DNA of 25,084 nucleotides from a virus (lineage: Duplodnaviria > Heunggongvirae > Uroviricota > Caudoviricetes): the IMG/VR virus record IMGVR_UViG_2778261154_000008. One strand, 5' to 3'. The translations under genes and the position numbers were made by a program. Below are positions 8,470 through 22,191 of this stretch, one piece after another (position 1 is the first letter of the stretch; the number at the start of each line of letters is the position of its first letter). The notes under the pieces were generated by a model. The model was not told the origin of the DNA. It searched no databases and saw nothing but the letters and a program-made list of their open reading frames with translations.

Positions 8470-9945
8470 TTAAAGCTTGAACTGAATCAGGCCTGCCAGC
8501 ACACGCAGCTGGTTCACCAGATTCGGGTGGCAGATAAAGTTCAGGCGGTTTTTATCACTGCTGTCACGTGTCACCTGAAGCGTGTCTTTGTAATCGCTGA
8601 AGTTCTCCACAAGGCCCGCCGGGAGAAGTTCGGTCTGGCAGATATCCAGCAGTTCTGCGGTGCACAGCTTCGGCGTCATCACCGGCTGCCCCGCATCCAG
8701 CGAGTCCAGCACGTCATCATCCGCCAGCTTGTGGCGCGGATAACGGTTCGTGAAACGGTTCTTGATGATGTAACGGATACGGCCCAGCGTGGCGGGTGAC
8801 TGCACATCCAGGTACGACACATCCGCATCACCGTACTGGTTAACCCGGTACATGGTGATTTCGCGCTCGATGCAGACGTTATCCCCGGCGTCCACCATGT
8901 GCGTGGCAATGCCGTCATGCAGCAGCAGATTACGCTCCGGCATATCCCAGCGAACATTACGCGCAGGCGGCAGAATGCCGGTCAGGACCAGCGTCTGAAG
9001 CGGTCGCGCCGGGTCAATGGCAAGGTGATACGCTGCCGTTGCGCCGTATGACGCGGCCCACATCCACGCCGGGTGCGGTGACAGGTTGGTGCCGATACAG
9101 CTAATCAGCCAGTCATTGCGGGTTTCACCAAACGTGCCGGTTTCCCCGTGTGTGCCACGAAACGCCGTCCACAGCTGCGCTTCCATCATTTTGAGCGGCC
9201 CCCAGCGGTTCAGCAGTTCATCACGCAGGGTGTTCAGGCTTTTCGTGTCGGTGAACGGGGCGATGATATCGGTAAACCACTCCGGGCCGATGGCCGCAAC
9301 GGCGTCTGCCATTTCCGGTGTCCCGGTGCCGCCGGTAAACGCGGTTGCGGTCACCTTCACACCTGCCGGGAAGGCTTCACCGGTGTGGTAGTTCAGGCGA
9401 ACGTCGGCACCGTTGCCGGTGACGCCGTGCCAGTTCACGGTCAGCTCCACGGTATCCGTGGCATCATCCTTCACCGCAGCGGCCACCTGCGTGGCAGGCT
9501 TTTTCGTCACCGCATCAGCAATGGCTTTTGCAATGTTTTCCTTCGTATCCCCGGCGCTCACGCTCACCTGAACGGACACACCGTTAATCAGCAGTGCCAC
9601 CGTTCCGGCTTCGGTCGCTGTACCCAGCACGGTCAGCGTGGCTTTTGCGGCAGCGCCTTCAGGAGCGGCAACCGGCATCGCCCAGGTTTCCGTGTACGTG
9701 TTGGCACGACGCAGCATTTTGAGCATTTCAGCCAGCATCGACCCTTTGCCATAAAGCTGGTCTGCCTGGCTGTCACTGGTGATGCGGGTCAGTGACAGGG
9801 CGTCTGCGCTGCCGGACGATACCGCATGGCCCATGACCAGAATTTTTCGGCTTTGCGCGGATGCACCCTCCAGCGCCTGTGAATTGTCGATATCGATCCA
9901 GACAAGCGGGACGCGGATATCATCAGGAATGGAACCCAGCGACAT
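8470..9945 (-). CDS. Contractile tail sheath protein (Mu L-like)
   Basis: 491-aa ORF with the size and composition of a sheath protein, followed by the tube gene. Confidence 0.85.
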   Translation of the reverse strand: MSLGSIPDDIRVPLVWIDIDNSQALEGASAQSRKILVMGHAVSSGSADALSLTRITSDSQADQLYGKGSMLAEMLKMLRRANTYTETWAMPVAAPEGAAAKATLTVLGTATEAGTVALLINGVSVQVSVSAGDTKENIAKAIADAVTKKPATQVAAAVKDDATDTVELTVNWHGVTGNGADVRLNYHTGEAFPAGVKVTATAFTGGTGTPEMADAVAAIGPEWFTDIIAPFTDTKSLNTLRDELLNRWGPLKMMEAQLWTAFRGTHGETGTFGETRNDWLISCIGTNLSPHPAWMWAASYGATAAYHLAIDPARPLQTLVLTGILPPARNVRWDMPERNLLLHDGIATHMVDAGDNVCIEREITMYRVNQYGDADVSYLDVQSPATLGRIRYIIKNRFTNRYPRHKLADDDVLDSLDAGQPVMTPKLCTAELLDICQTELLPAGLVENFSDYKDTLQVTRDSSDKNRLNFICHPNLVNQLRVLAGLIQFKL

Positions 9946-10145: not shown

Positions 10146-10722
10146 GGATCACGTCGTTAATTTCAGTGTGTTCGCCGCAGCGCAGCGTTGCCCCGAGGCG
10201 CAGGAAATCAGGGAGCGCGGCGAGATCAATCTCTTCATCCAGCCGGAATTCCTGCTCCCACGTCACCGCCCACATGGTGACACCCAGCCCGTCGAGGCTG
10301 ACGGAGTAAATGTTGTCTGCCCGCACATCAGCGGCCATACGTTCAGCCCCCATGCCCCCGGTGGCATCCGACGACAGCAGGCGTTTGATCACCTTCCCGG
10401 CCAGCACTTCACAGCGCACGTCGCGGGAGTACCCCCACGAATCCGTCGCCATGATGTAAGCCACCCAGGTAACCAGACCGGACAGCCCGCCGCGCGGGTT
10501 GATATCCCGGACACGCAGGGCAGCTACCCGGATACAGCCGGTGCGACCGGACAGATAGCGTTTCACTTCATCCGTGCTGTTGAACTGGCCGATGTGACGC
10601 TCCACCACATCAGCCCGGTCGGGGGTGTCCCCCTGAAGGGCCGTCTGCAGCCAGGCCACAATGCGCTCTGCGGCCGCAACGGTGCTCCCCGGTGTGCGCA
10701 GTTCAGGGCGTTGTTCTGTCAT
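10111..10722 (-). CDS. Mu gp37-like head-tail joining / tail completion protein
   Basis: 203-aa ORF in the head-tail junction module, coupled to its upstream neighbour. Confidence 0.5.
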   Translation of the reverse strand: MTEQRPELRTPGSTVAAAERIVAWLQTALQGDTPDRADVVERHIGQFNSTDEVKRYLSGRTGCIRVAALRVRDINPRGGLSGLVTWVAYIMATDSWGYSRDVRCEVLAGKVIKRLLSSDATGGMGAERMAADVRADNIYSVSLDGLGVTMWAVTWEQEFRLDEEIDLAALPDFLRLGATLRCGEHTEINDVIHVRGDDGTETD

Positions 10723-11264
10723 GGCAGAACCTCCTTCCAGAAATGACTGATAACCTGTTGCAGCTCCTGCTGGCTGGCAGAAGACAGCCCCAGAAATTCA
10801 CGTTGCGGAATGTTCATCATGCGGTGATGTGCACCGACGGTCTGCCAGACCGGATATTTCAGCGCCCGCCCGAAACACTGCGAGATAAGCCGTTTGTGGG
10901 CGCTGACCGGCACGCTGCCGGAAAAGCCGTCATTCATGATGCGGGCATAATCCAGCGGTGAACCGATACGCACCACGCGGTTTTCCACGATGTACTGGAT
11001 ACTCTCCAGCAGATGGCCTTCACCGCGCAGCAGACTCTGGTTGCCGTGGCGGGTCTTTTTGTACCCGTCAGACCAGTCCGGCCAGCGTTCGCCACCCGGA
11101 CTGGTTTTCTCATCGATGATGCGGCGGCGGGTCTGTGATTCCACCACCGCACCGATGCTTTCCAGCAGCTCTGACTGCAATGAACCCTCTGCCAGCTTTT
11201 CAACGGCGCGGCGGATATCCTCCAGACGCTGGTCACCGCTGACCTGTACAGAAATCCCCATCAC
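10719..11264 (-). CDS. Phage virion morphogenesis protein (P2 gpS-like tail completion)
   Basis: 181-aa ORF with ATGA start/stop overlap to the upstream gene; position between head and tail modules. Confidence 0.55.
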   Translation of the reverse strand: MMGISVQVSGDQRLEDIRRAVEKLAEGSLQSELLESIGAVVESQTRRRIIDEKTSPGGERWPDWSDGYKKTRHGNQSLLRGEGHLLESIQYIVENRVVRIGSPLDYARIMNDGFSGSVPVSAHKRLISQCFGRALKYPVWQTVGAHHRMMNIPQREFLGLSSASQQELQQVISHFWKEVLP

Positions 11265-12993: not shown

Positions 12994-13950
12994 TTACTCC
13001 TGTTTCGGTTTAGCGGCGAGGAACTCTTCCCCGGTAATACCCATGCTGCGACACATCGCCAGTTCGGCATCGGTCAGTGTCTGCGCGGGTTTATCCTTGC
13101 CCTGGCTGGGCTTGTCGTTGTTAACCAGCGGCTGTGCACCTTTGGTGTACTCCGCAAACTGTTTGCGGCCTTCTTCCGTGCGGCAGGTGGCAAGGAACAT
13201 GTCACGGTTTGCCGGGGCGACTTTTCCGGCCCCGATGGCCGCATCCACAAGCGCCTCGGCTTCCTTCTCTTCCAGTTGCTGAAGGCGTTTTTCTGCGGTT
13301 TCGGCACGGTTCAGTGCCAGATTGTGGGTTTCCACCGGCACAAACTTCGTCAGGTCAGGTGTCTGTGCGCGGTTCAGCGCCACCTGTTCGTTCTCCTGAA
13401 GTTGTTTAATGGCGGCCACGGTATCGTCCACCGTGGCGGATTCAGCCAGCCCAAGCAGGCCGGTGATTTGCACAGGTACTGTCATCGGGTTTTTCTCCGT
13501 ATTCAGTGCAGGAAAATCCAGGTTAGGTTTGTTGGTCAGCCCGACGCTGGACAGGCGCGTCACCGCACCGTCTGCGTCATGGAAAAACGCCGGGCTGTAA
13601 TAGCGGTAGCGGCGCTCGCTCAGCATCCACCGGGCGGACTCACTCCAGACAACACGCCCTTCAATGGTGCCGCTGTCCGTCACCCGCAGTGCTTCCACCC
13701 AGCCATACGCCGGAGCCTCTTCACCCCGCGGGCCTTTAATTTCGGTGGCATGTTCAATGTCCACCGGAATGTTGATGTCGGACGAACGGGCAACCACCTC
13801 ATGTGGATTGCGGTTCATCCACGTCCGGCCATCGCGCCCGGTGAACTCACCCGCAGGAACGAGTTCAAGCCATTCCGGCAGTTGAGCGGGTGTCAGCTCA
13901 GGGATGGGTTCTGGCAGGGAAAAACACAGCGCCAGCAGTTCCGGTTGCAT
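12994..13950 (-). CDS. Head maturation protease / scaffold (Mu I / gp32-like)
   Basis: 318-aa ORF with a C-terminal helical Ala/Glu/Lys-rich scaffold-like region; first gene after the F-I intergenic gap. Confidence 0.8.
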   Translation of the reverse strand: MQPELLALCFSLPEPIPELTPAQLPEWLELVPAGEFTGRDGRTWMNRNPHEVVARSSDINIPVDIEHATEIKGPRGEEAPAYGWVEALRVTDSGTIEGRVVWSESARWMLSERRYRYYSPAFFHDADGAVTRLSSVGLTNKPNLDFPALNTEKNPMTVPVQITGLLGLAESATVDDTVAAIKQLQENEQVALNRAQTPDLTKFVPVETHNLALNRAETAEKRLQQLEEKEAEALVDAAIGAGKVAPANRDMFLATCRTEEGRKQFAEYTKGAQPLVNNDKPSQGKDKPAQTLTDAELAMCRSMGITGEEFLAAKPKQE

Positions 13951-13999
13951 GTCAGTCTCCGTCGTCTGGGGTTACCGACGGTCAGTATGCGGAAGGCAG

Positions 14000-14025
14000 A
14001 AAAAAAGCCGGATTTACCGGCTTCA
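14000..14025 (-). terminator. Exact second copy of the same 26-bp hairpin plus T-tract element, ~50 nt upstream of the protease/scaffold gene
   Basis: aaaaaaagccggatttaccggcttca is identical at 14000-14025 and 21712-21737; flanks differ. Position matches where Mu has its late promoter for gene I. Confidence 0.5.
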
Positions 14026-14043
14026 CTGAAAACGGGGAAATAC

Positions 14044-14066
14044 CCCCTTCAAAACCCCTTCAAAAA
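14044..14066. repeat. Tandem direct repeat CCCCTTCAAAA x2 (third, degenerate copy GCTTCAAAAAA at 14077-14087) in the F-I intergenic region
   Basis: Read directly from the sequence; minus-strand form TTTTGAAGGGG. The TGAAG core also occurs in both copies of the 26-bp element and in the endolysin-leader hairpin. Confidence 0.4.
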
Positions 14067-14113
14067 CGCCACAGACGCTTCAAAAAAGCCAGGGTGTACA
14101 TTCATGCCATCAG

Positions 14114-14140
14114 AATAAAAAACGCGTTTCTGATGCGTTT
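14114..14140 (-). terminator. Candidate intrinsic terminator just downstream of the head morphogenesis gene
   Basis: Minus-strand RNA AAACGC-AUCAGAAAC-GCGUUU-UUUAUU, starting ~25 nt after the stop at 14165; the stem is short and AU-rich, so the call is weak. Confidence 0.3.
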
Positions 14141-14164
14141 CAGGGGTATTTACGGCGGGGTGGG

Positions 14165-14929
14165 TTATTCACTGTTAAAACGGGCCTGTCTGGCCGCCAG
14201 CTGGCGCGCCAGCTCCTGCTCACGGTTTATACCGGGATTGTAGTTCCAGCCCGGATCAATCCCTTCCGGCACATCTTCCTCTTCGCCCGTGCGTTTGTTC
14301 ACCCAGCGGACAGTTCTGATTTCCGGCGCTTCGGTGTGAATGGTGCCCTGTGCCGCCAGTTGCGCATACTCACCACGGCTGACCTGACGGATGGTGCATT
14401 TGCAGCCCCAGCCGTTAGGGGCAAAATGCGTCTGCCAGAACGGATGATCTACCGGCAGACACAGACGCGCCCATTTCACATGCTCCACCCGGTGCTCACG
14501 GGATGGCCCCAGCTCGTACATCAGATACGGCATGGCCTGCTTTGTCCGCTGAATGCGTTCCCACTGGCCCGCCGCGCGGGCGGTGCGCATGTTGGTATCA
14601 AAAATCGTGCGGAGGCGGCGGTCGCTGCCCAGTTGCACGGTGCGGGTTTCACCCGTCAGCGGATCATCCATCTCCTGTACGCCCCACCATCCGCGTTTTA
14701 TCAGCAACGGTTGCAGCATCTCCCGGAACTCGCTGAACGTCTGCCCGCTTTGCAGGGCGTCTTCCACAAGGGCTTTCACATCCGACAACAAATCCAGTTG
14801 CAGCATTCTGGCCACGGGGAAGCTGTACCGGTACTCTTCCCGCCACACATCCCGGTAATCAAAACCGGGACGCAGCTTCTTCGCCTTCAGCCACGCCAGC
14901 GCCTCTTTCGGGATGAGGGTTTCACGCAT
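14165..14929 (-). CDS. Head morphogenesis protein (Mu F / gp30-like)
   Basis: ORF listed as 14165..14986. I prefer the internal ATG at 14929, which has GGGAGA 9 nt upstream and overlaps the portal stop by 8 nt. Confidence 0.75.
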   Translation of the reverse strand: MRETLIPKEALAWLKAKKLRPGFDYRDVWREEYRYSFPVARMLQLDLLSDVKALVEDALQSGQTFSEFREMLQPLLIKRGWWGVQEMDDPLTGETRTVQLGSDRRLRTIFDTNMRTARAAGQWERIQRTKQAMPYLMYELGPSREHRVEHVKWARLCLPVDHPFWQTHFAPNGWGCKCTIRQVSRGEYAQLAAQGTIHTEAPEIRTVRWVNKRTGEEEDVPEGIDPGWNYNPGINREQELARQLAARQARFNSE

Positions 14930-16493
14930 GAGCAGTGTCTCCCAGCGCACGCGCCTTAAAGCACACCTCCGCCAGTTGCAGGGCAAAGTCGTCCGCGTTC
15001 AGCGTTTCCTGAAGCTCAGGCAGGCGTTTCAGAAAGTCATCAAAACTGTCGCACTCCTGCGCCAGTGTCAGCACCGGGTTCGTGAACGCCTCGCCGGTTT
15101 TCTGCCAGTCACGCAGGGCATCATCCACCATCTGTGCCAGTTCGTCGGGGTGTTCCCTGTTCAGGGCGACGCGCTCGCGGTTCATCGCCATATCACCCGG
15201 CATCCCGGCGGAAACCGGATGCAGAACATCAGCCCCTTCGTCTGGCTCAGTCAGGCCGAACCGGTCCCGCAGCTCCGATTCCTGAACCCGCATCCCCCGG
15301 TCAATCAGCGGCACCAGAGCATCCGTCAGCGCCTTCAGATCTTCGGCTTCACTGATACGCAGAACAACACGGGGGTAGTGCGCCTGTGGCCCGTAGTTGG
15401 CCTCGATGTAGGGCCGCACCAGATATTCATTCAGCGTGTTAGCCAGCTGTCGCGCGTCCCAGCGCACAATGTCCATGCGCACCTGATTGTGCACGTCCGC
15501 CTGTGAACGCGAACTGCCGTTATCCGTGGTCATGGTCTGCCCCAGCACAGCCTTACTGATTTGCGCATCGCACCATTCCGCCATTTCACGGAACAGTGCG
15601 CCGCCGTTATTCCGGCTGGCGGTTTCCTGCATCTCCAGTTGCATGGACTGCGGAATGGCACACCCGGCATCCGAGGCAATGGAGGCAATCGCATCAATCA
15701 GCACGCGGATTTGCTCCTCCGTGGCGTTGGGACCGTATTTCCCCACCGTAACCGGAATGCCGAATTTTTCCGCAAATGCCCACCAGTCGCGCACGGTAAA
15801 TGATTTCAGCATGTACATCACAGCCACCAGACGGGCCAGACCGTTACGCAGCGGCAGACCGGATTTCAGACGCGGCTGGTGAACAATGAATTTTCCCGGT
15901 GTCAGCGGTACGCCATCCACCGGTTCATCGTCCGTCAGCAGGCGGAACTGGCGCAGTGTGGGCTTTTCGGCTTTCAGAAAACGGGGATCAACCCACTCAT
16001 AATCACGGGGCATCCAGTGGTTGTTGCGGGTGTCCCACAGGATTTCACAGACCGCCACGCCTTTTCCCAGCCCGTCGAGCAAATCAAACATCAGTTCGGG
16101 GATTTGCGGGGCTTCCATCAGCGCACGGATGGCGTCCGCCAGCTGCACGTCGGCATCGTCATCACTGGCGGCCACCACCACCGGTTCGATACCTGCCACT
16201 GTCAGCTTGCGGGTGCGCAGCACCGAGGCGTAATGCAAATCACGTTCTTCCATCTCTTCGGCAAGGATAAAAAAATCACGCGTGATGCCGTCGGCGGCAT
16301 TGCGCAGAATGCCTGCCAGCCTGCCGGGGTTCAGCCCGGAGGCGACGCTGATACCCGGCGAGGCCGGACGCACACCGGCATGACGCGGACGGGCCTGTGC
16401 TTCGTTGAGCGCCTCTTTTTTCAGCGTGTCTTCCTCACCGGTTGCCGGATTCAGCAGACGGCGAACGGCCCCGGCCAGTTGTTTCAGGTTCAC
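14922..16493 (-). CDS. Portal protein (Mu H / gp29-like, DUF935-type)
   Basis: 523-aa ORF immediately downstream of the terminase large subunit, with overlapping stop/start. Confidence 0.85.
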   Translation of the reverse strand: MNLKQLAGAVRRLLNPATGEEDTLKKEALNEAQARPRHAGVRPASPGISVASGLNPGRLAGILRNAADGITRDFFILAEEMEERDLHYASVLRTRKLTVAGIEPVVVAASDDDADVQLADAIRALMEAPQIPELMFDLLDGLGKGVAVCEILWDTRNNHWMPRDYEWVDPRFLKAEKPTLRQFRLLTDDEPVDGVPLTPGKFIVHQPRLKSGLPLRNGLARLVAVMYMLKSFTVRDWWAFAEKFGIPVTVGKYGPNATEEQIRVLIDAIASIASDAGCAIPQSMQLEMQETASRNNGGALFREMAEWCDAQISKAVLGQTMTTDNGSSRSQADVHNQVRMDIVRWDARQLANTLNEYLVRPYIEANYGPQAHYPRVVLRISEAEDLKALTDALVPLIDRGMRVQESELRDRFGLTEPDEGADVLHPVSAGMPGDMAMNRERVALNREHPDELAQMVDDALRDWQKTGEAFTNPVLTLAQECDSFDDFLKRLPELQETLNADDFALQLAEVCFKARALGDTAHA

Positions 16494-18025
16494 AGTAAAC
16501 CTCCCTCATTTTTCAGGCCGCGTGTCAGCTTCATCTGGCGGCGCGCGTTGCCTTCTTCCGGTTTCGCCGGGCGGTTCAGGCGGTGCAGCTCGTAACGGTG
16601 GCAGTCATCCTTGCTGGCAAGGAAGCCCAGGAAAATGGCCACAGCGGCGTCGCCGTGACGCTTGCGGCCATCACTGCCTTTAGTACGGGCATCGTCAATG
16701 CCGGGAACACCACGCAGTAACTGAATGGCCCCGAGGTCATTGATCACGTCTTCATGCTTCGGAAGGATCAGCTCATCATCTTCAAACGCTGCACGGAAAC
16801 GGGGCATGTTTTCGCGGTAGAACGCCACGGACAGCATCACCTGTTCCACCTCATCGCCGTACCGCTCCGCCGCCTGTTCTGCCAGATACTGACCATTCCC
16901 CCGCGCATCCATTTTGATACCGTCACGACGGGGCAGACGATCGCAAAGCCAGAACAGCACCTGCTCCTGCTGTTTAAACGGCACATTGGCAAGCTCAACC
17001 AGGAACGGCACCTCGCGGGTGGTGTCGTCGTTCACCGTTACCGGGGCCAGCACGGTCAGGTCACCCGAACGCGCAAAGTCTTCCCCCAGACAGTGGCGCA
17101 GGCTCTGCGGGAGTTTTTCCAGTTCAGGGCGCACCACCGTTTCCAGCCATTCCCGGATATCTGCCCGGCGCTGGCTTTCCGTCAGTGCGTTAAACTCCGG
17201 CGTGCCGGTAAAGCGCAACACTTTTCCGGTGCCACGGGCCGCACGTTCACGCAGTGAGCGGGGGATATACGTGCCGCCGCCGTTTTTCGGGACGCAGTAA
17301 TACTCCTCCAGCGCATCTTCGCGGGTGGCGGTATTTCGCAGCAGGCCTTCTTTCCATTCCGCCTCGGCTTCCGGTGACCACACCATGCCGCGCACCTGAC
17401 AGATACGCCGGTACAGACCGTCATTGCAGGCGTCATCCAGCGTGATGGTGTGAATACGGTAATCTTTTTTGCCTGCGCGGCTTTCCTGAATCAGCTGGTT
17501 AAACGGGTTGTCCACGCCGTCATGGGTGGAGATAAGGCGAACCTTACCGCCCCACGTGGTCAGTGGTGTGACCGCCTTGAGTACCTCATCCAGCTTTTCA
17601 TGAAACGCCGCTTCGTCGATGGTGACATTCCCCTGCATCCCGCGAATGTTGCCCGGATTACTGGACAGCGCCTTGACCTTAAATCCGCTGGCGAAGTACA
17701 CGACGAACGTCAGAATGTCCTTGTCTTCGTCGGTGATCACTTCCTCGCGGATTTCTTCCGCGGCTGCATTAAACGCTTTCGCCCACATCGCCACGGCGTC
17801 GATAAATTCGCGGGCCATCTCCTTATTCGAACCGATGTAAAAGTGATCGCGCCCGCCGTTTTCCTTCTTCAGTGATGCGGTCAGTGCCGCATCTGCCGCT
17901 TCTGCCCAGGTTAAACCGGTACGGCGGGATTTTTCGGCGATTTTCAGTTTTGAATCATCCGCCACCCAACGTTTCTGATACGGCAGCAGAACATCGGATT
18001 CACTGAATGCGTTCATCTGTGTCAT
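16490..18025 (-). CDS. Terminase large subunit (Mu gp28-like)
   Basis: 511-aa ORF with an ATPase-like N-terminal half (acidic NVTIDEAAF motif resembling a Walker B / catalytic carboxylate) and a nuclease-sized C-terminal half; ATGA overlap with the small subunit. Confidence 0.9.
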   Translation of the reverse strand: MTQMNAFSESDVLLPYQKRWVADDSKLKIAEKSRRTGLTWAEAADAALTASLKKENGGRDHFYIGSNKEMAREFIDAVAMWAKAFNAAAEEIREEVITDEDKDILTFVVYFASGFKVKALSSNPGNIRGMQGNVTIDEAAFHEKLDEVLKAVTPLTTWGGKVRLISTHDGVDNPFNQLIQESRAGKKDYRIHTITLDDACNDGLYRRICQVRGMVWSPEAEAEWKEGLLRNTATREDALEEYYCVPKNGGGTYIPRSLRERAARGTGKVLRFTGTPEFNALTESQRRADIREWLETVVRPELEKLPQSLRHCLGEDFARSGDLTVLAPVTVNDDTTREVPFLVELANVPFKQQEQVLFWLCDRLPRRDGIKMDARGNGQYLAEQAAERYGDEVEQVMLSVAFYRENMPRFRAAFEDDELILPKHEDVINDLGAIQLLRGVPGIDDARTKGSDGRKRHGDAAVAIFLGFLASKDDCHRYELHRLNRPAKPEEGNARRQMKLTRGLKNEGGLL

Positions 18026-21667: not shown

Positions 21668-21696
21668 TGAAGCAGATTTAAACGTGGTCTGCTTCA
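21668..21696 (-). promoter_or_regulatory. 9-bp perfect inverted repeat in the endolysin leader, immediately upstream of its RBS
   Basis: tgaagcaga-N11-tctgcttca; on the mRNA the hairpin ends 12 nt before the ATG, next to AGGUG. Shares the TGAAGC motif with the 26-bp element. Confidence 0.4.
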
Positions 21697-21711
21697 TGGT
21701 GCCGGAGGCAT

Positions 21712-21737
21712 AAAAAAAGCCGGATTTACCGGCTTCA
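21712..21737 (-). terminator. Hairpin plus T-tract between the Mor/C gene and the lysis operon: intrinsic terminator and/or late-promoter activator site (copy 2 of a 26-bp repeat)
   Basis: Minus-strand RNA reads UGAAGCCGG-UAAAU-CCGGCUU-UUUUUUA: 7-bp GC-rich stem, 5-nt loop, U7. Begins 4 nt after the Mor/C stop and lies ~55 nt upstream of the endolysin ATG. Confidence 0.55.
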
Positions 21738-21741
21738 TTGA

Positions 21742-22191
21742 TTAAGGACGTCGTGGCGGACGACGAACGGGGTGAGGCAGGTTCGGGGAGTGGTAAAACA
21801 AATCCGGCTGGTATTTATTACACTCCAGACGCCGCATCCGCTTGATGGCCTTGTAGACGGTTTTATACGTCACCCCGTAACGCTGAACCAGTTCAGGAAT
21901 ATTATGGCCGTTAAAATCACGCCAGATACGCATATCCCGGACAAGATTCTCCAGAATATTCCCCCTCGGAACATAAACCTGCATCCCGCCGATATAGCGA
22001 CAAATCGCCACAACCAGCTCAAGGGAATGGGCAGGGTCTGCGCCAATCCGGGCCAGCTCTTTACGCAGCAGTGCGTTCAGTTCAGAAAGTAACGCCGGAT
22101 AAGCCGTGTTTTCCTGGTAATCGTTAAGGTATTCCAGAACGCTGTCGTCCCGGAAGTCTTCGAATAAATCCTGCTCTTTCATCTGTTTCAT
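21742..22191 (-). CDS. Mor/C-family transcriptional activator of middle/late genes
   Basis: 149-aa ORF; the segment DPAHSLELVVAICRYIGGMQVYVPRG...YGVTYKTVYKAIKRMRR closely resembles the Mu Mor/C family as I recall it; ATGA overlap with gemA; sits directly upstream of the lysis operon. Confidence 0.75.
   Translation of the reverse strand: MKQMKEQDLFEDFRDDSVLEYLNDYQENTAYPALLSELNALLRKELARIGADPAHSLELVVAICRYIGGMQVYVPRGNILENLVRDMRIWRDFNGHNIPELVQRYGVTYKTVYKAIKRMRRLECNKYQPDLFYHSPNLPHPVRRPPRRP

What the first reader, a model, noticed from the sequence alone, without database searches (positions are those of the whole stretch)
14026..14164. Repeat-rich intergenic region between the head morphogenesis and protease/scaffold genes
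The 214-bp gap carries, in order on the coding strand, a weak terminator-like hairpin (14114-14140), tandem TTTTGAAGGGG repeats (14044-14066, degenerate third copy at 14077-14087), a small GGGG-UAUUU-CCCC hairpin, and the 26-bp conserved hairpin/T-tract (14000-14025). The equivalent head-gene/protease-scaffold junction of Pseudomonas Mu-like phages is the known anti-CRISPR locus. Here I found no ORF longer than ~18 codons on either strand, so the gap looks purely regulatory: a likely late-promoter region with upstream repeats.
Basis: partly seen in the sequence, partly recalled or inferred. Interest (0 to 1): 0.4.

Follow-up and report, generated by a model that had tools for sequence, protein, structure and literature searches.

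The report
Central gyrase site of Mu-like prophage
The repeat-rich gap is most likely this Mu-like prophage's central strong DNA-gyrase binding site, followed by a terminator and activator-dependent promoter for the head genes; both are known kinds of element, packed unusually tightly here.

Summary
The window is a 34.7-kb Mu-like transposable prophage of E. coli.

The 214-bp gap between the F-like gene and the protease/scaffold gene I holds two homologues of known Mu elements.

1. Positions 14166-14017 match the Mu strong gyrase site (SGS).
- The TTTTGAAGGGG repeats align without gaps to the phased T-tract boxes of the essential SGS right arm.
- A profile built from 36 diverged relatives gives one significant hit in the window (14168-14042, E=1.4e-6). 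In Mu it gives one significant hit, the SGS right arm (E=2.2e-8).
- The region has the strongest 10.5-11 bp AT/GC phasing in the 25-kb window.
- It lies 48.3% along the prophage; the Mu SGS lies at 48.7%.
- The predicted 4-bp cleavage stagger is 14103-14100.

2. Positions 14029-13984 match the Mu early-terminator hairpin plus the Mor-dependent middle promoter Pm, with the same spacing. A 90% identical copy sits at 21700-21741, between the Mor orthologue and lys.

The repeats belong to the gyrase site, not the promoter. No gyrase binding or transcription was tested. This is a new member of a known kind.

The parts
14017..14166 (-). Predicted strong gyrase site (SGS), positions -65 to +85 around the predicted cleavage centre (between 14102 and 14101)
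   Evidence: Profile HMM from 36 diverged relatives hits 14168-14042, E=1.4e-6, next best hit 0.13. The same profile hits the Mu SGS right arm, E=2.2e-8. The site lies 48.3% from the left end of the prophage, against 48.7% in Mu. SGS anatomy is taken from PMC6463007.
14127..14166 (-). Left arm (-65 to -26). It starts at the last base of the F stop codon (14167-14165) and contains CCGCCGTAAATACCCCTGAAACGC and the 5' half of the CATCAGAA/TTCTGATG inverted repeat.
   Evidence: This is the least conserved part across 15 representative sites, at 0.61 bits per column, as expected for the dispensable Mu left arm. AT runs at -16.5, -37.5 and -48 match the consensus phases 19, 38.5 and 49.5.
14077..14126 (-). 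Gate (G-segment) region, -25 to +25
   Evidence: Ungapped register alignment with Mu and 57 other sites. Conservation is 1.02 bits per column.
14100..14103 (-). Predicted 4-bp cleavage stagger GAAT, within GGCAT^GAAT^GTACA
   Evidence: This is the same alignment column as the mapped Mu stagger AATC (L004 9877-9880 = Mu 17876-17879). That position comes from the centring of the 133-bp Mu SGS fragment of PMC6379681 and the GenBank 'gyrase cut site'. Cross-correlation of AT phase with the E. coli gyrase consensus peaks at shift 0/+1. The flanks resemble the consensus core GGTAT^NNNN^ATACC, but this match is weak and tied with another shift. The prediction is uncertain by about 2 bp.
14037..14076 (-). 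First 40 bp of the right arm (+26 to +65), the part that is essential in Mu. It contains box 2 (14066-14055, TTTTTGAAGGGG), box 3 (14054-14043, TTTTGAAGGGGG) and TATTT (14042-14038).
   Evidence: This is the most conserved part of the site, at 1.28 bits per column. Its 10.5-11 bp AT/GC periodicity ranks first in the window. AT runs at +37.5, +49 and +61.5 compare with consensus 38.5, 49.5, 61 and Mu 38.5, 50.5, 60.5. A 46-bp stretch is 95.7% identical to the G-I junction of the Mu-type prophage of E. coli SE11.
14076..14087 (-).
   Evidence: It aligns with Mu TTTTTTAAAACG and Klebsiella-type TTCTTAAACGCG.
14012..14027 (-). Predicted Mor-binding site AGTGAAGCCGGTAAAT (-51 to -36 of the gene I promoter)
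   Evidence: Ungapped alignment with the Mu Pm Mor site AGTAAAGCCGGTTAAT. The Mu numbering was checked against the literature bases -57G and -54A. The motif is conserved at fixed spacing in 73 related loci.
13998..14024 (-). Intrinsic-terminator-like hairpin GAAGCCGG-TAAAT-CCGGCTT(T) plus a run of seven T. It overlaps the Mor site.
   Evidence: -12.8 kcal/mol, z = -3.4. Flagged by the terminator scan. Compensatory changes occur in relatives. The T run is absent upstream of gene I in Klebsiella-type relatives.
13984..13989 (-). -10 hexamer CATACT (-13 to -8). No -35 hexamer. Predicted start near 13976.
   Evidence: It aligns with the Mu Pm -10 TATCCT. The positions A2 and T6 are conserved in all relatives. 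The sigma-70 scan finds no complete promoter, as expected for an activator-dependent one.
13959..13981 (-). Second dyad, CCGTCG-N11-CGACGG, between the -10 hexamer and the start codon. Its 3' arm overlaps the Shine-Dalgarno GGAG (13960-13957).
   Evidence: -9.7 kcal/mol. Compensatory changes occur across the family and in Mu. Its function is not resolved.
21700..21741 (-). Second copy of the terminator/promoter module, directly after the Mor orthologue and upstream of lys
   Evidence: 90% identity over 42 nt. Hairpin -12.6 kcal/mol. It sits in the same position as the hairpin and Pm after mor in Mu.
21742..22191 (-). Mor-family activator gene, the presumed trans-acting partner of both promoter modules
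   Evidence: PF08765, E=4.3e-30. 61% identical to Mu Mor and 32% to Mu C. It is the only Mor/C-family gene annotated in the prophage.

Best explanation
The gap is the compact central control region of a Mu-like transposable prophage. It contains two adjacent and slightly overlapping elements.

(1) A strong gyrase site (14166-14017).
- Host DNA gyrase binds here.
- Its G-segment is centred on GGCAT^GAAT^GTACA (14103-14100).
- The right arm carries three T-tract/G-tract boxes, phased at about 10.7 bp. They wrap around a GyrA C-terminal domain and present the T-segment.
- By analogy with Mu, processive supercoiling from the middle of the 34.7-kb prophage forms a plectonemic loop with the site at its apex. 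The loop brings the two prophage ends together for transpososome assembly after induction.

(2) A terminator and promoter module (14029-13984).
- The hairpin plus T7 can stop transcripts arriving from the lys-to-F operon.
- The same DNA holds a 16-bp site for the phage Mor-type activator, centred at -43.5.
- This site, with the -10 hexamer CATACT and no -35 hexamer, starts transcription of I and T (and probably the genes downstream) near 13976.

What is shown: homology, position, phasing and spacing. What is inferred: gyrase binding and cleavage, the role in replication, Mor dependence and termination.
For: Context.
- All head and tail genes, a MuA-like transposase, a MuB-like ATPase, Gam, GemA, Mor, Com and Mom are present.
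- The prophage ends were defined by comparing two lysogens with different insertion sites: L005 5126-39842, 34,717 bp.

Gyrase site.
- GenBank marks a 'gyrase cut site' in the Mu G-I gap.
- The 133-bp Mu SGS fragment of PMC6379681 maps to L004 9813-9945, centred on AATC at 9877-9880.
- Sixty sites, including Mu, the SE11 prophage and the window, align without gaps. The Mu stagger falls on GAAT at 14103-14100.
- A profile HMM trained without Mu, SE11 or the window family gives one significant hit in each target: window 14168-14042 (E=1.4e-6), Mu right arm 9884-9938 (E=2.2e-8), SE11 (E=6.9e-8).
- 70 of 84 related loci carry the block upstream of gene I.
- AT/GC periodicity at 10.5-11 bp ranks first of about 25,000 positions. 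The Mu right arm ranks 1-21 of 16,000.
- AT-run centres coincide within about 2 bp with those of Mu and of the E. coli Topo-Seq gyrase consensus.
- Cross-correlation with that consensus peaks at shift 0 for the family (r = 0.35 and 0.33) and at 0/+1 for the window.
- Conservation rises from left arm (0.61 bits) to gate (1.02) to right arm (1.28). This mirrors the functional dissection of the Mu SGS (PMC6463007, PMC13284261).
- The site lies 48.3% from the left end. The figure is 48.7% for Mu, 48.0% for Klebsiella phage Kp4866-3, and a median of 47.8% in 38 viral contigs of 30-38 kb.
- The only strong DNA match between the SE11 Mu-type head region and the window is the 46-bp right arm.

Promoter and terminator.
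- The module aligns without gaps to the Mu hairpin plus Pm.
- The Mu numbering reproduces the published -57G and -54A.
- The published Mor site, -51 to -36, has 5-bp repeats around a G/C-rich hexamer. This matches AGTGA-AGCCGG-TAAAT.
- The Mor orthologue is 61% identical to Mu Mor.
- A second copy of the module sits after that gene.
Against: - There are no experimental data for this sequence.
- The published gyrase position weight matrix was not available, because the supplementary sheet was cut when stored.
- A raw match count to the consensus failed the Mu positive control.
- The S/W correlation score puts the site only at rank 31-37 of 24,953, against rank 4-7 of 15,870 for Mu.
- The match of the cleavage core to the consensus is weak. 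It is tied with shift +4 for the window, and shifts -8 and -9 score nearly as high for the family.
- The boxes read TTGAAG here, where most relatives and Mu have TTAAAC.
- The boxes are conserved more strongly than indirect readout by gyrase would seem to need. A sequence-specific protein could be involved.
- The site lies at the F-I junction, not G-I, because the G-like gene sits elsewhere (10719-11264).
- If the hairpin terminates efficiently, it would also act on any read-through into gene I.
- The T run is missing upstream of gene I in many relatives. Termination at this position is therefore not a conserved requirement.
Confidence: 0.72

Rival explanations
1. The region is purely transcriptional. 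The tandem boxes would be upstream activator or UP-type elements of the late promoter for gene I, and the other hairpins would be terminators or attenuators.
For: A promoter module is indeed present just downstream. Mu Pm has an A/T-rich alpha-CTD subsite just upstream of the Mor site. The boxes are T-rich.
Against: - The boxes lie at about -67 to -110. Mutations upstream of -57 had no effect on Mu Pm.
- The lys copy of the module lacks the boxes.
- In 7 relatives a 330-350 bp insert separates the boxes from the promoter, yet both are retained.
- The boxes are homologous to the Mu SGS right arm, which is separate from Mu PI.
Confidence: 0.08
2. The three boxes are iteron-like binding sites for a sequence-specific protein other than gyrase. 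This could be a phage or nucleoid protein that organises the centre of the prophage, acting with or without gyrase.
For: - Box sequences and their 21/11-bp spacing are nearly invariant across phages whose I proteins are only 27-62% identical.
- A 46-bp stretch is 95.7% identical between otherwise unrelated head regions.
- Formation of the Mu domain needs IHF, Fis, HU and MuB as well as the SGS (PMC3820752).
Against: No such protein is known for the Mu SGS. In Mu the same arm is sufficient for preferential gyrase action in vitro with purified enzyme. The phasing matches the gyrase motif.
Confidence: 0.1
3. The gap encodes a small RNA that covers the repeats and ends at the hairpin/T7 terminator.
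For: A strong intrinsic-terminator-like hairpin lies at 14024-13998. The upstream sequence is conserved.
Against: - Rfam gives no match with E below 0.45.
- No sigma-70-type promoter is found in the gap.
- The T run is absent at this position in many relatives that keep the boxes.
- Conservation is at the level of primary sequence and phase, without a conserved fold over the boxes. The GGGG/CCCC hairpin varies among close relatives.
Confidence: 0.03
4. The region is a non-functional relic, a remnant left when gene G moved away, and the resemblances are fortuitous.
For: CATCAGAAACGCGT in the gap resembles the 3' end of Mu gene G (CATCAGAAAACGCGT). The G-like gene is elsewhere.
Against: The block is conserved across 70 loci with an ordered conservation gradient. 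Boxes 2 and 3 show a single variable column (one G/T difference in box 2) among the 17 window-family sites.
Confidence: 0.03

Closest known systems
[quoted passage not shown]
   Same: - It lies in the intergenic region directly upstream of the protease/scaffold gene I.
- It is near-central in the genome (48.3% against 48.7%).
- The right arm is homologous and has three phased T-tract boxes with the same spacing to the cleavage column.
- The conservation gradient matches the functional map: left arm dispensable, gate and right arm important.
   Different: - The boxes read TTGAAG(G/C)G instead of TTAAAC(G/C)G.
- The upstream gene is F, not G.
- The distal right arm (+75 to +90) overlaps the promoter's activator site, whereas in Mu about 30 more base pairs separate the SGS from PI.
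- Gyrase binding has not been tested here.
Mu middle promoter Pm with the hairpin that follows mor. From my own memory this hairpin is the early-operon terminator t9.2.
   Same: - The sequence AGT(A/G)AAGCCGGT(T/A)AATCCGGCTTTTTTT is shared.
- The spacing from the Mor site to the -10 hexamer is the same 38 bp.
- There is no -35 hexamer.
- One copy lies directly after the mor orthologue.
   Different: - Here the module drives lys and gene I directly.
- No C-type second activator is encoded, so the cascade appears to have two tiers instead of Mu's three.
- The module is duplicated. Mu uses C-dependent Plys and PI at these places.
E. coli gyrase cleavage motif from Topo-Seq (Sutormin et al. 2019, PMC6379681)
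   Same: It is a roughly 130-bp footprint with about 10.75-bp AT/GC periodicity in both arms. AT-run centres in the window fall within 2 bp of the consensus phases.
   Different: The central core matches only weakly. The score with the published matrix could not be computed.
Anti-CRISPR loci of Pseudomonas Mu-like phages, between the head morphogenesis gene and the protease/scaffold gene (from my own knowledge)
   Same: The map position is the same. Seven relatives carry a variable 104-111 aa ORF between the gyrase-site block and the gene I promoter.
   Different: The window has no ORF there. The relatives' proteins have no Pfam or PHROG match and no adjacent aca-type regulator was seen. An anti-defence function is untested.

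Membership tests
Mu-type strong gyrase site (SGS) | Lies near the centre of a transposable Mu-like phage genome | tested here: met
   Prophage ends are at L005 5126 and 39842. The site is at 48.3% from the left end, against 48.7% in Mu.
Mu-type strong gyrase site (SGS) | Sequence homology to the experimentally defined Mu SGS | tested here: met
   An independent profile HMM hits the window at 14168-14042 (E=1.4e-6) and the Mu right arm at 9884-9938 (E=2.2e-8). These are the only significant hits in each target.
Mu-type strong gyrase site (SGS) | Right arm of at least 40 bp with phased anisotropic bending signals starting about +26 | tested here: met
   Periodicity ranks first in the window. AT runs fall at +37.5, +49 and +61.5, against Mu 38.5, 50.5 and 60.5.
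Mu-type strong gyrase site (SGS) | High score against the E. coli gyrase motif | tested here: inconclusive
   The matrix was not available. The S/W correlation gives rank 31-37 of 24,953 with z about 3, against rank 4-7 for Mu. A raw consensus match failed the Mu control.
Mu-type strong gyrase site (SGS) | Single strong gyrase cleavage with a 4-bp stagger, and very stable gyrase binding | not testable with these tools
   Prediction only: 14103-14100.
Mu-type strong gyrase site (SGS) | Required for efficient replicative transposition after induction | not testable with these tools
   This needs a deletion or replacement in a lysogen.
Mor-dependent promoter of Mu Pm type | A 16-bp dyad (5-bp repeats around a G/C-rich hexamer) centred at -43.5, a -10 hexamer, and no -35 hexamer | tested here: met
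   AGTGA-AGCCGG-TAAAT at 14027-14012 lies 38 bp before CATACT, as in Mu. The scan finds no sigma-70-type promoter. The repeat symmetry is imperfect, 3 of 5 positions.
Mor-dependent promoter of Mu Pm type | A cognate Mor-family activator is encoded by the phage | tested here: met
   Gene 21742-22191, PF08765, 61% identical to Mu Mor.
Mor-dependent promoter of Mu Pm type | Transcription starts there and depends on the activator | not testable with these tools
   The predicted start is near 13976.
Intrinsic (Rho-independent) terminator | G+C-rich stem-loop followed by a U run | tested here: met
   8-bp stem, 5-nt loop, T7, -12.8 kcal/mol, z = -3.4.
Intrinsic (Rho-independent) terminator | U run and stem conserved at this position in relatives | tested here: inconclusive
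   They are kept in the window family and in several diverged phages. They are lost upstream of gene I in Klebsiella-type phages, which keep them upstream of lys.
Anti-CRISPR or other cargo locus at the head-gene/protease junction | A small ORF in the gap | tested here: not met
   The window has no sense-strand ORF of 20 aa or more lying within the gap. Such ORFs are present in 7 relatives.
Known RNA family (Rfam) | A match reaching the family's gathering score | tested here: not met
   The best match is sroD at 19.1 bits, against a gathering score of 50, E=0.45.

The most novel reading that the evidence does not exclude
The right arm of the gyrase site may be a sequence-specific, horizontally exchangeable module rather than a merely bendable stretch.
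- Its three TTWAAS boxes are conserved far more than indirect readout would require.
- The arm has been swapped between unrelated Mu-like lineages. The SE11 prophage has a Mu-type gate and a window-type arm.
- In this phage the gyrase wrap (+75 to +90) physically overlaps the Mor site and terminator of the head-gene promoter.

Gyrase occupancy and late head-gene transcription could therefore exclude each other. That would couple the replication (transposition) phase to the start of morphogenesis. An additional box-binding factor could also exist.
Probability: 0.15. Interest if true: 0.6.

Novelty: new member of a known kind. Interest (0 to 1): 0.4.

Why it matters
The Mu SGS is described as the strongest and highest-affinity gyrase site known. 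It is a model for how DNA sequence directs gyrase.

This work places a second E. coli prophage lineage, found in 49 of 5,426 complete genomes, in one alignable family with dozens of Klebsiella-type and other enteric prophages. The family has a defined consensus and a predicted cleavage column. It also contains a natural arm-swap hybrid.

Together these give a ready-made set of natural variants. They can be used to test which right-arm features matter for processive supercoiling and for synapsis of the prophage ends.

For annotation, a 'repeat-rich regulatory gap' in Mu-like prophages should be read as a gyrase site plus a promoter. The slot between the two is a place to look for cargo genes.

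Tried and rejected
- Megablast of the region against the phage collection found no match. The distant mode found only Klebsiella phage Kp4866-3.
- Rfam found nothing significant.
The alignment-based scan of viral contigs was the productive one.
- Counting raw matches to the 133-bp gyrase consensus failed to recover the Mu SGS, so I discarded it.
- The published gyrase matrix (sheet DS10) is cut off in the stored supplement.
- Oram and Pato 2004 and Oram et al. 2006 are not held. What I say about tested SGS sequences of other prophages rests on memory and on citing papers.
- The cleavage-core match as a function of shift was ambiguous.
- I first tried to fit the dyad to the Mu C-protein site of Plys and PI. 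The spacing was off by about 6 bp. The discrepancy disappeared once the module was recognised as Pm-type, with the Mor site offset 5.5 bp from the hairpin centre.
- The Klebsiella-type block has no match in complete E. coli genomes.
- I considered the antisense ORFs across the gap and rejected them.
- The small proteins in relatives have no Pfam or PHROG match.
Full report
**Observation**

All genes in this part of the window are on the - strand.
- The F-like head morphogenesis gene (ORF 14165-14986, PF04233) and the Mu-I-type protease/scaffold gene (12994-13950, PF10123) flank a 214-bp gap, 13951-14164.
  - two perfect TTTTGAAGGGG units at 14044-14066 (TRF period 11);
  - a degenerate third unit at 14076-14087;
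  - the GGGG-TATTT-CCCC hairpin;
  - the CATCAGAA/TTCTGATG inverted repeat;
  - a strong hairpin with a T run at 14024-13998.
- The hairpin element of 42 nt (13988-14029) recurs at 21700-21741 with 90% identity.
- The only inaccuracy concerns ORFs. Mechanical ORFs do cross the gap on the + strand. They are frames antisense to gene I, and the frame that covers the gap is not preserved among close relatives. RefSeq annotates nothing there.

**Context**

- The window is 99.9% identical to a prophage of E. coli FDAARGOS_943. Related copies occur in 49 of 5,426 complete E. coli genomes.
- The prophage has a full Mu-like gene set: transposase, MuB-like ATPase, Gam, GemA, Mor, lysis genes, terminase, portal, F, I, T, tail genes, Com and Mom.
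- I compared two lysogens with different insertion sites. This places the ends at L005 5126 and 39842, a length of 34,717 bp. In window coordinates the prophage runs from about -3832 to 30884.
- The G-like gene (PF05069) is at 10719-11264, not between F and I as in Mu.

**The repeats belong to a strong gyrase site**

- GenBank marks a 'gyrase cut site' at 17879/17880 in the Mu G-I gap.
- The 133-bp Mu SGS fragment used by Sutormin et al. (PMC6379681, supplement) maps to L004 9813-9945 and is centred on AATC at 9877-9880.
- PMC6463007 summarises the anatomy of the Mu SGS. The left arm, -65 to -26, is dispensable. The gate is -25 to +25. The right arm is +26 to +85, and its first 40 bp are essential and carry phased bending signals. 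PMC13284261 confirms that removing the right arm abolishes preferential gyrase action, while removing the left arm does not.
- Read on the coding strand, the Mu right arm is GATTTTTTAAAACGCGCCACGGGATTTTTAAACCGGTATTTAACGG. It lines up with the window's GGCTTTTTTGAAGCGTCTGTGGCGTTTTTGAAGGGGTTTTGAAGGGGG.

**Related loci**

- A scan of viral contigs with an alignment of I proteins returned 80 loci.
- In 57 of these a regular-expression anchor on the box pattern extracts a block. The blocks align without gaps. The Klebsiella-type consensus is ...TTTGTGGTACGATGATTCTCTGAAAATTTCTTAAACGCGCCACGGCGTTTTTGAACGGGGTTTGAACGCGGTTCCCC.
- In this register the mapped Mu stagger falls on GATG in the Klebsiella type (GGTAC^GATG^ATTC). 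In the window it falls on GAAT (GGCAT^GAAT^GTACA; 14103-14100).

**Tests of the gyrase-site reading**

1. *Profile search.* I built a profile HMM from 36 distinct sites, excluding Mu, SE11 and the window family.
   - In the 25-kb window it gives one significant hit, 14168-14042 (E=1.4e-6; next best 0.13).
   - In 16 kb of Mu it gives one significant hit, 9884-9938, which is the SGS right arm (E=2.2e-8).
   - It gives one in the SE11 locus (E=6.9e-8).
   - 70 of 84 related loci carry the block.
2. *Periodicity.* AT/GC periodicity at 10.5-11 bp in 36- and 58-nt windows ranks first of about 25,000 positions, at 14029 onward. The Mu right arm ranks 1-21 of 16,000, depending on the parameters.
3. 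*AT-run positions.* In the window, AT runs are centred at +17, +37.5, +49 and +61.5, and at -16.5, -37.5 and -48. In Mu they are at +17.5, +38.5, +50.5 and +60.5. In the E. coli gyrase consensus they are at 19, 38.5, 49.5 and 61 on both arms.
4. *Cross-correlation.* The family AT profile was correlated with the S/W pattern of the consensus. Among 67 shifts the correlation peaks at shift 0 (r = 0.35 and 0.33). For the window alone it peaks at 0/+1, and for Mu alone at -1/0.
5. *Conservation.* Across 15 representative sites it rises from the left arm (0.61 bits per column) to the gate (1.02) to the first 40 bp of the right arm (1.28). This is the order of functional importance in Mu.
6. *Position.* The predicted site lies 48.3% from the left end of the prophage. 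The figure is 48.7% for Mu, 48.0% for Klebsiella phage Kp4866-3, and a median of 47.8% for 38 viral contigs of 30-38 kb. The ends of those viral contigs are only approximate.

Weaker or failed tests:
- A raw count of matches to the consensus did not recover the Mu SGS, so I discarded it.
- The S/W correlation scanned along whole sequences ranks the Mu SGS 4-7 of 15,870 and the window site 31-37 of 24,953.
- The match of the cleavage core to the consensus is weak and not unique.
- The published matrix was not available.

**A natural hybrid**

- The Mu-type prophage of E. coli SE11 has F, G and I genes of the same lengths as Mu. Its I protein is only 27% identical to that of the window.
- It has a Mu-like gate, GATAAAATCACGCG. 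Its right arm is 95.7% identical over 46 bp to the window's, in the same register.
- This 46-bp stretch is by far the strongest DNA match between the 8-kb SE11 head region and the whole window.
- The arm therefore behaves as an exchangeable module at a fixed distance from the gate.

**The hairpin/T-tract is a terminator fused to a Mor-dependent promoter**

- The window gene at 21742-22191 is 61% identical to Mu Mor and 32% to Mu C. No other Mor/C-family gene is annotated in the prophage.
- Directly after mor, Mu has ACAGTAAAGCCGGTTAATCCGGCTTTTTTTACGTCCTCAATATCCTGTGATGAA.
- Published data on Pm say that Mor binds a 16-bp element at -51 to -36. The element has two 5-bp inverted repeats around a G/C-rich hexanucleotide. 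There is a -10 hexamer and no -35 hexamer (PMC4390567, PMC4287176).
- I assigned AGTAA-AGCCGG-TTAAT to -51..-36. This puts +1 at L004 1225 and makes TATCCT the -10 hexamer at -13..-8. It also places G at -57 and A at -54, exactly as published.
- Both window copies align to this Mu sequence without gaps:
  - upstream of gene I: AGTGAAGCCGGTAAAT (14027-14012), CATACT (13989-13984), predicted start near 13976;
  - upstream of lys: AATGAAGCCGGTAAAT (21739-21724), CACCAT (21701-21696), predicted start near 21688.
- The hairpin AAGCCGG-TWAAT-CCGGCTT plus T7 overlaps the Mor site and folds at -12.8 and -12.6 kcal/mol. From my own memory, the corresponding Mu hairpin is the early-operon terminator t9.2.
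- Across 24 diverged sequences the dyad shows compensatory changes: GC to AU in six sequences at one pair and CG to GC in four at another.
- Upstream of gene I, Klebsiella-type phages have an imperfect stem and no T run. Upstream of lys they keep the hairpin plus T7. So the conserved function at gene I is the promoter, and termination is an added feature in this lineage.
- The 90% identity of the two window copies suggests that one promoter was converted by the other.

**How it most likely works**

- After induction, gyrase bound at the central site supercoils the prophage processively. This helps the two ends synapse for replicative transposition, as proposed for Mu (PMC3820752). The step is inferred by homology.
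- The Mor orthologue then activates the two Pm-type promoters. There is no C-type intermediate, so the cascade appears to have two tiers.
- In this phage the region is compressed. The distal right arm (+75 to +90) coincides with the Mor site.

**Comparison and novelty**

Strong gyrase sites in Mu and in some Mu-like prophages are known (Oram and Pato 2004, cited), and so are Pm-type promoters. This is a new member of both families. The added value is a family-wide consensus, a predicted cleavage column, an arm-swap hybrid, and the overlap between the gyrase site and the promoter.

**Not resolved**

- Why the boxes are conserved so strongly.
- The role of the second dyad between the -10 hexamer and the start codon.
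- Whether the terminator is used.

Noticed in passing
L028:2066-2380, L040:2055-2390, L045:2074-2403, L054:299-628 (also L042, L043, L055): In 7 of 70 related loci a 330-350 bp low-GC insert lies between the gyrase-site block and the gene I promoter. It encodes a divergent 104-111 aa protein with no Pfam or PHROG match. The map position is that of anti-CRISPR loci in Pseudomonas Mu-like phages. The slot is empty in the window.
   Followed up: partly
window 13959-13981 (- strand): A second dyad, CCGTCG-N11-CGACGG, lies between the -10 hexamer and the gene I start codon. Its 3' arm overlaps the Shine-Dalgarno sequence. The pairing is kept with different sequences in Klebsiella-type and Vibrio-type phages and in Mu (21 double-change cells against 7.8 in shuffles). 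The 5' arm starts at or inside the -10 hexamer. It may therefore act in read-through transcripts or as a DNA operator rather than in the promoter's own mRNA.
   Followed up: partly
L003 3995-4106 (E. coli SE11 prophage, G-I junction): This is a natural hybrid gyrase site. The gate is Mu-like (GATAAAATCACGCG). The right arm is 95.7% identical over 46 bp to the window's, although the I proteins are only 27% identical. The same arrangement occurs in strains TUM9757 and PEC422.
   Followed up: partly
window 14134-14157 (- strand): The left-arm motif CCGCCGTAAATACCCCTGAAACGC, just after the F stop codon, is conserved in relatives. In the Klebsiella type it forms the perfect hairpin GAGGCGG-TAAT-CCGCCTC. 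It also resembles the sequence upstream of gene I in Vibrio-type phages (ACCACCCCCGTAAATCTCACC ... TTATTCTGG). It could be an F terminator, a relic promoter, or part of the gyrase wrap.
   Followed up: no
window 10719-11264 (- strand): The G-like virion morphogenesis gene (PF05069) lies after the gp36-like gene instead of between F and I as in Mu. The gyrase site therefore sits at an F-I junction.
   Followed up: no
L005 6084-6207 (- strand; outside the window, upstream of com/mom): This is a Pmom-like region. It has a cluster of GATC sites followed by GATTAAATACC, then 21 nt, then ATATCC. It suggests a third promoter of the same activator family, with Dam/OxyR-type control as in Mu.
   Followed up: no
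L005 5122-5130 and 39838-39847; L006 3202-3210 and 37821-37830: The prophage ends read TAAAGCGCGC... and ...CCTAGTCATAT rather than TG...CA. The flanking duplications match in only 4 of 5 bases in both lysogens (GTTTC/ATTTC and GTGAA/ATGAA). The duplication may be 4 bp, or the terminal base may be assigned wrongly.
   Followed up: no
L078-L084, L089 (Vibrio/Enterovibrio-type loci): These relatives lack the gyrase-site block upstream of gene I. In contigs of prophage size that junction lies off-centre, at 56-60% instead of 46-50%. If they have a central gyrase site, it is elsewhere.
   Followed up: no
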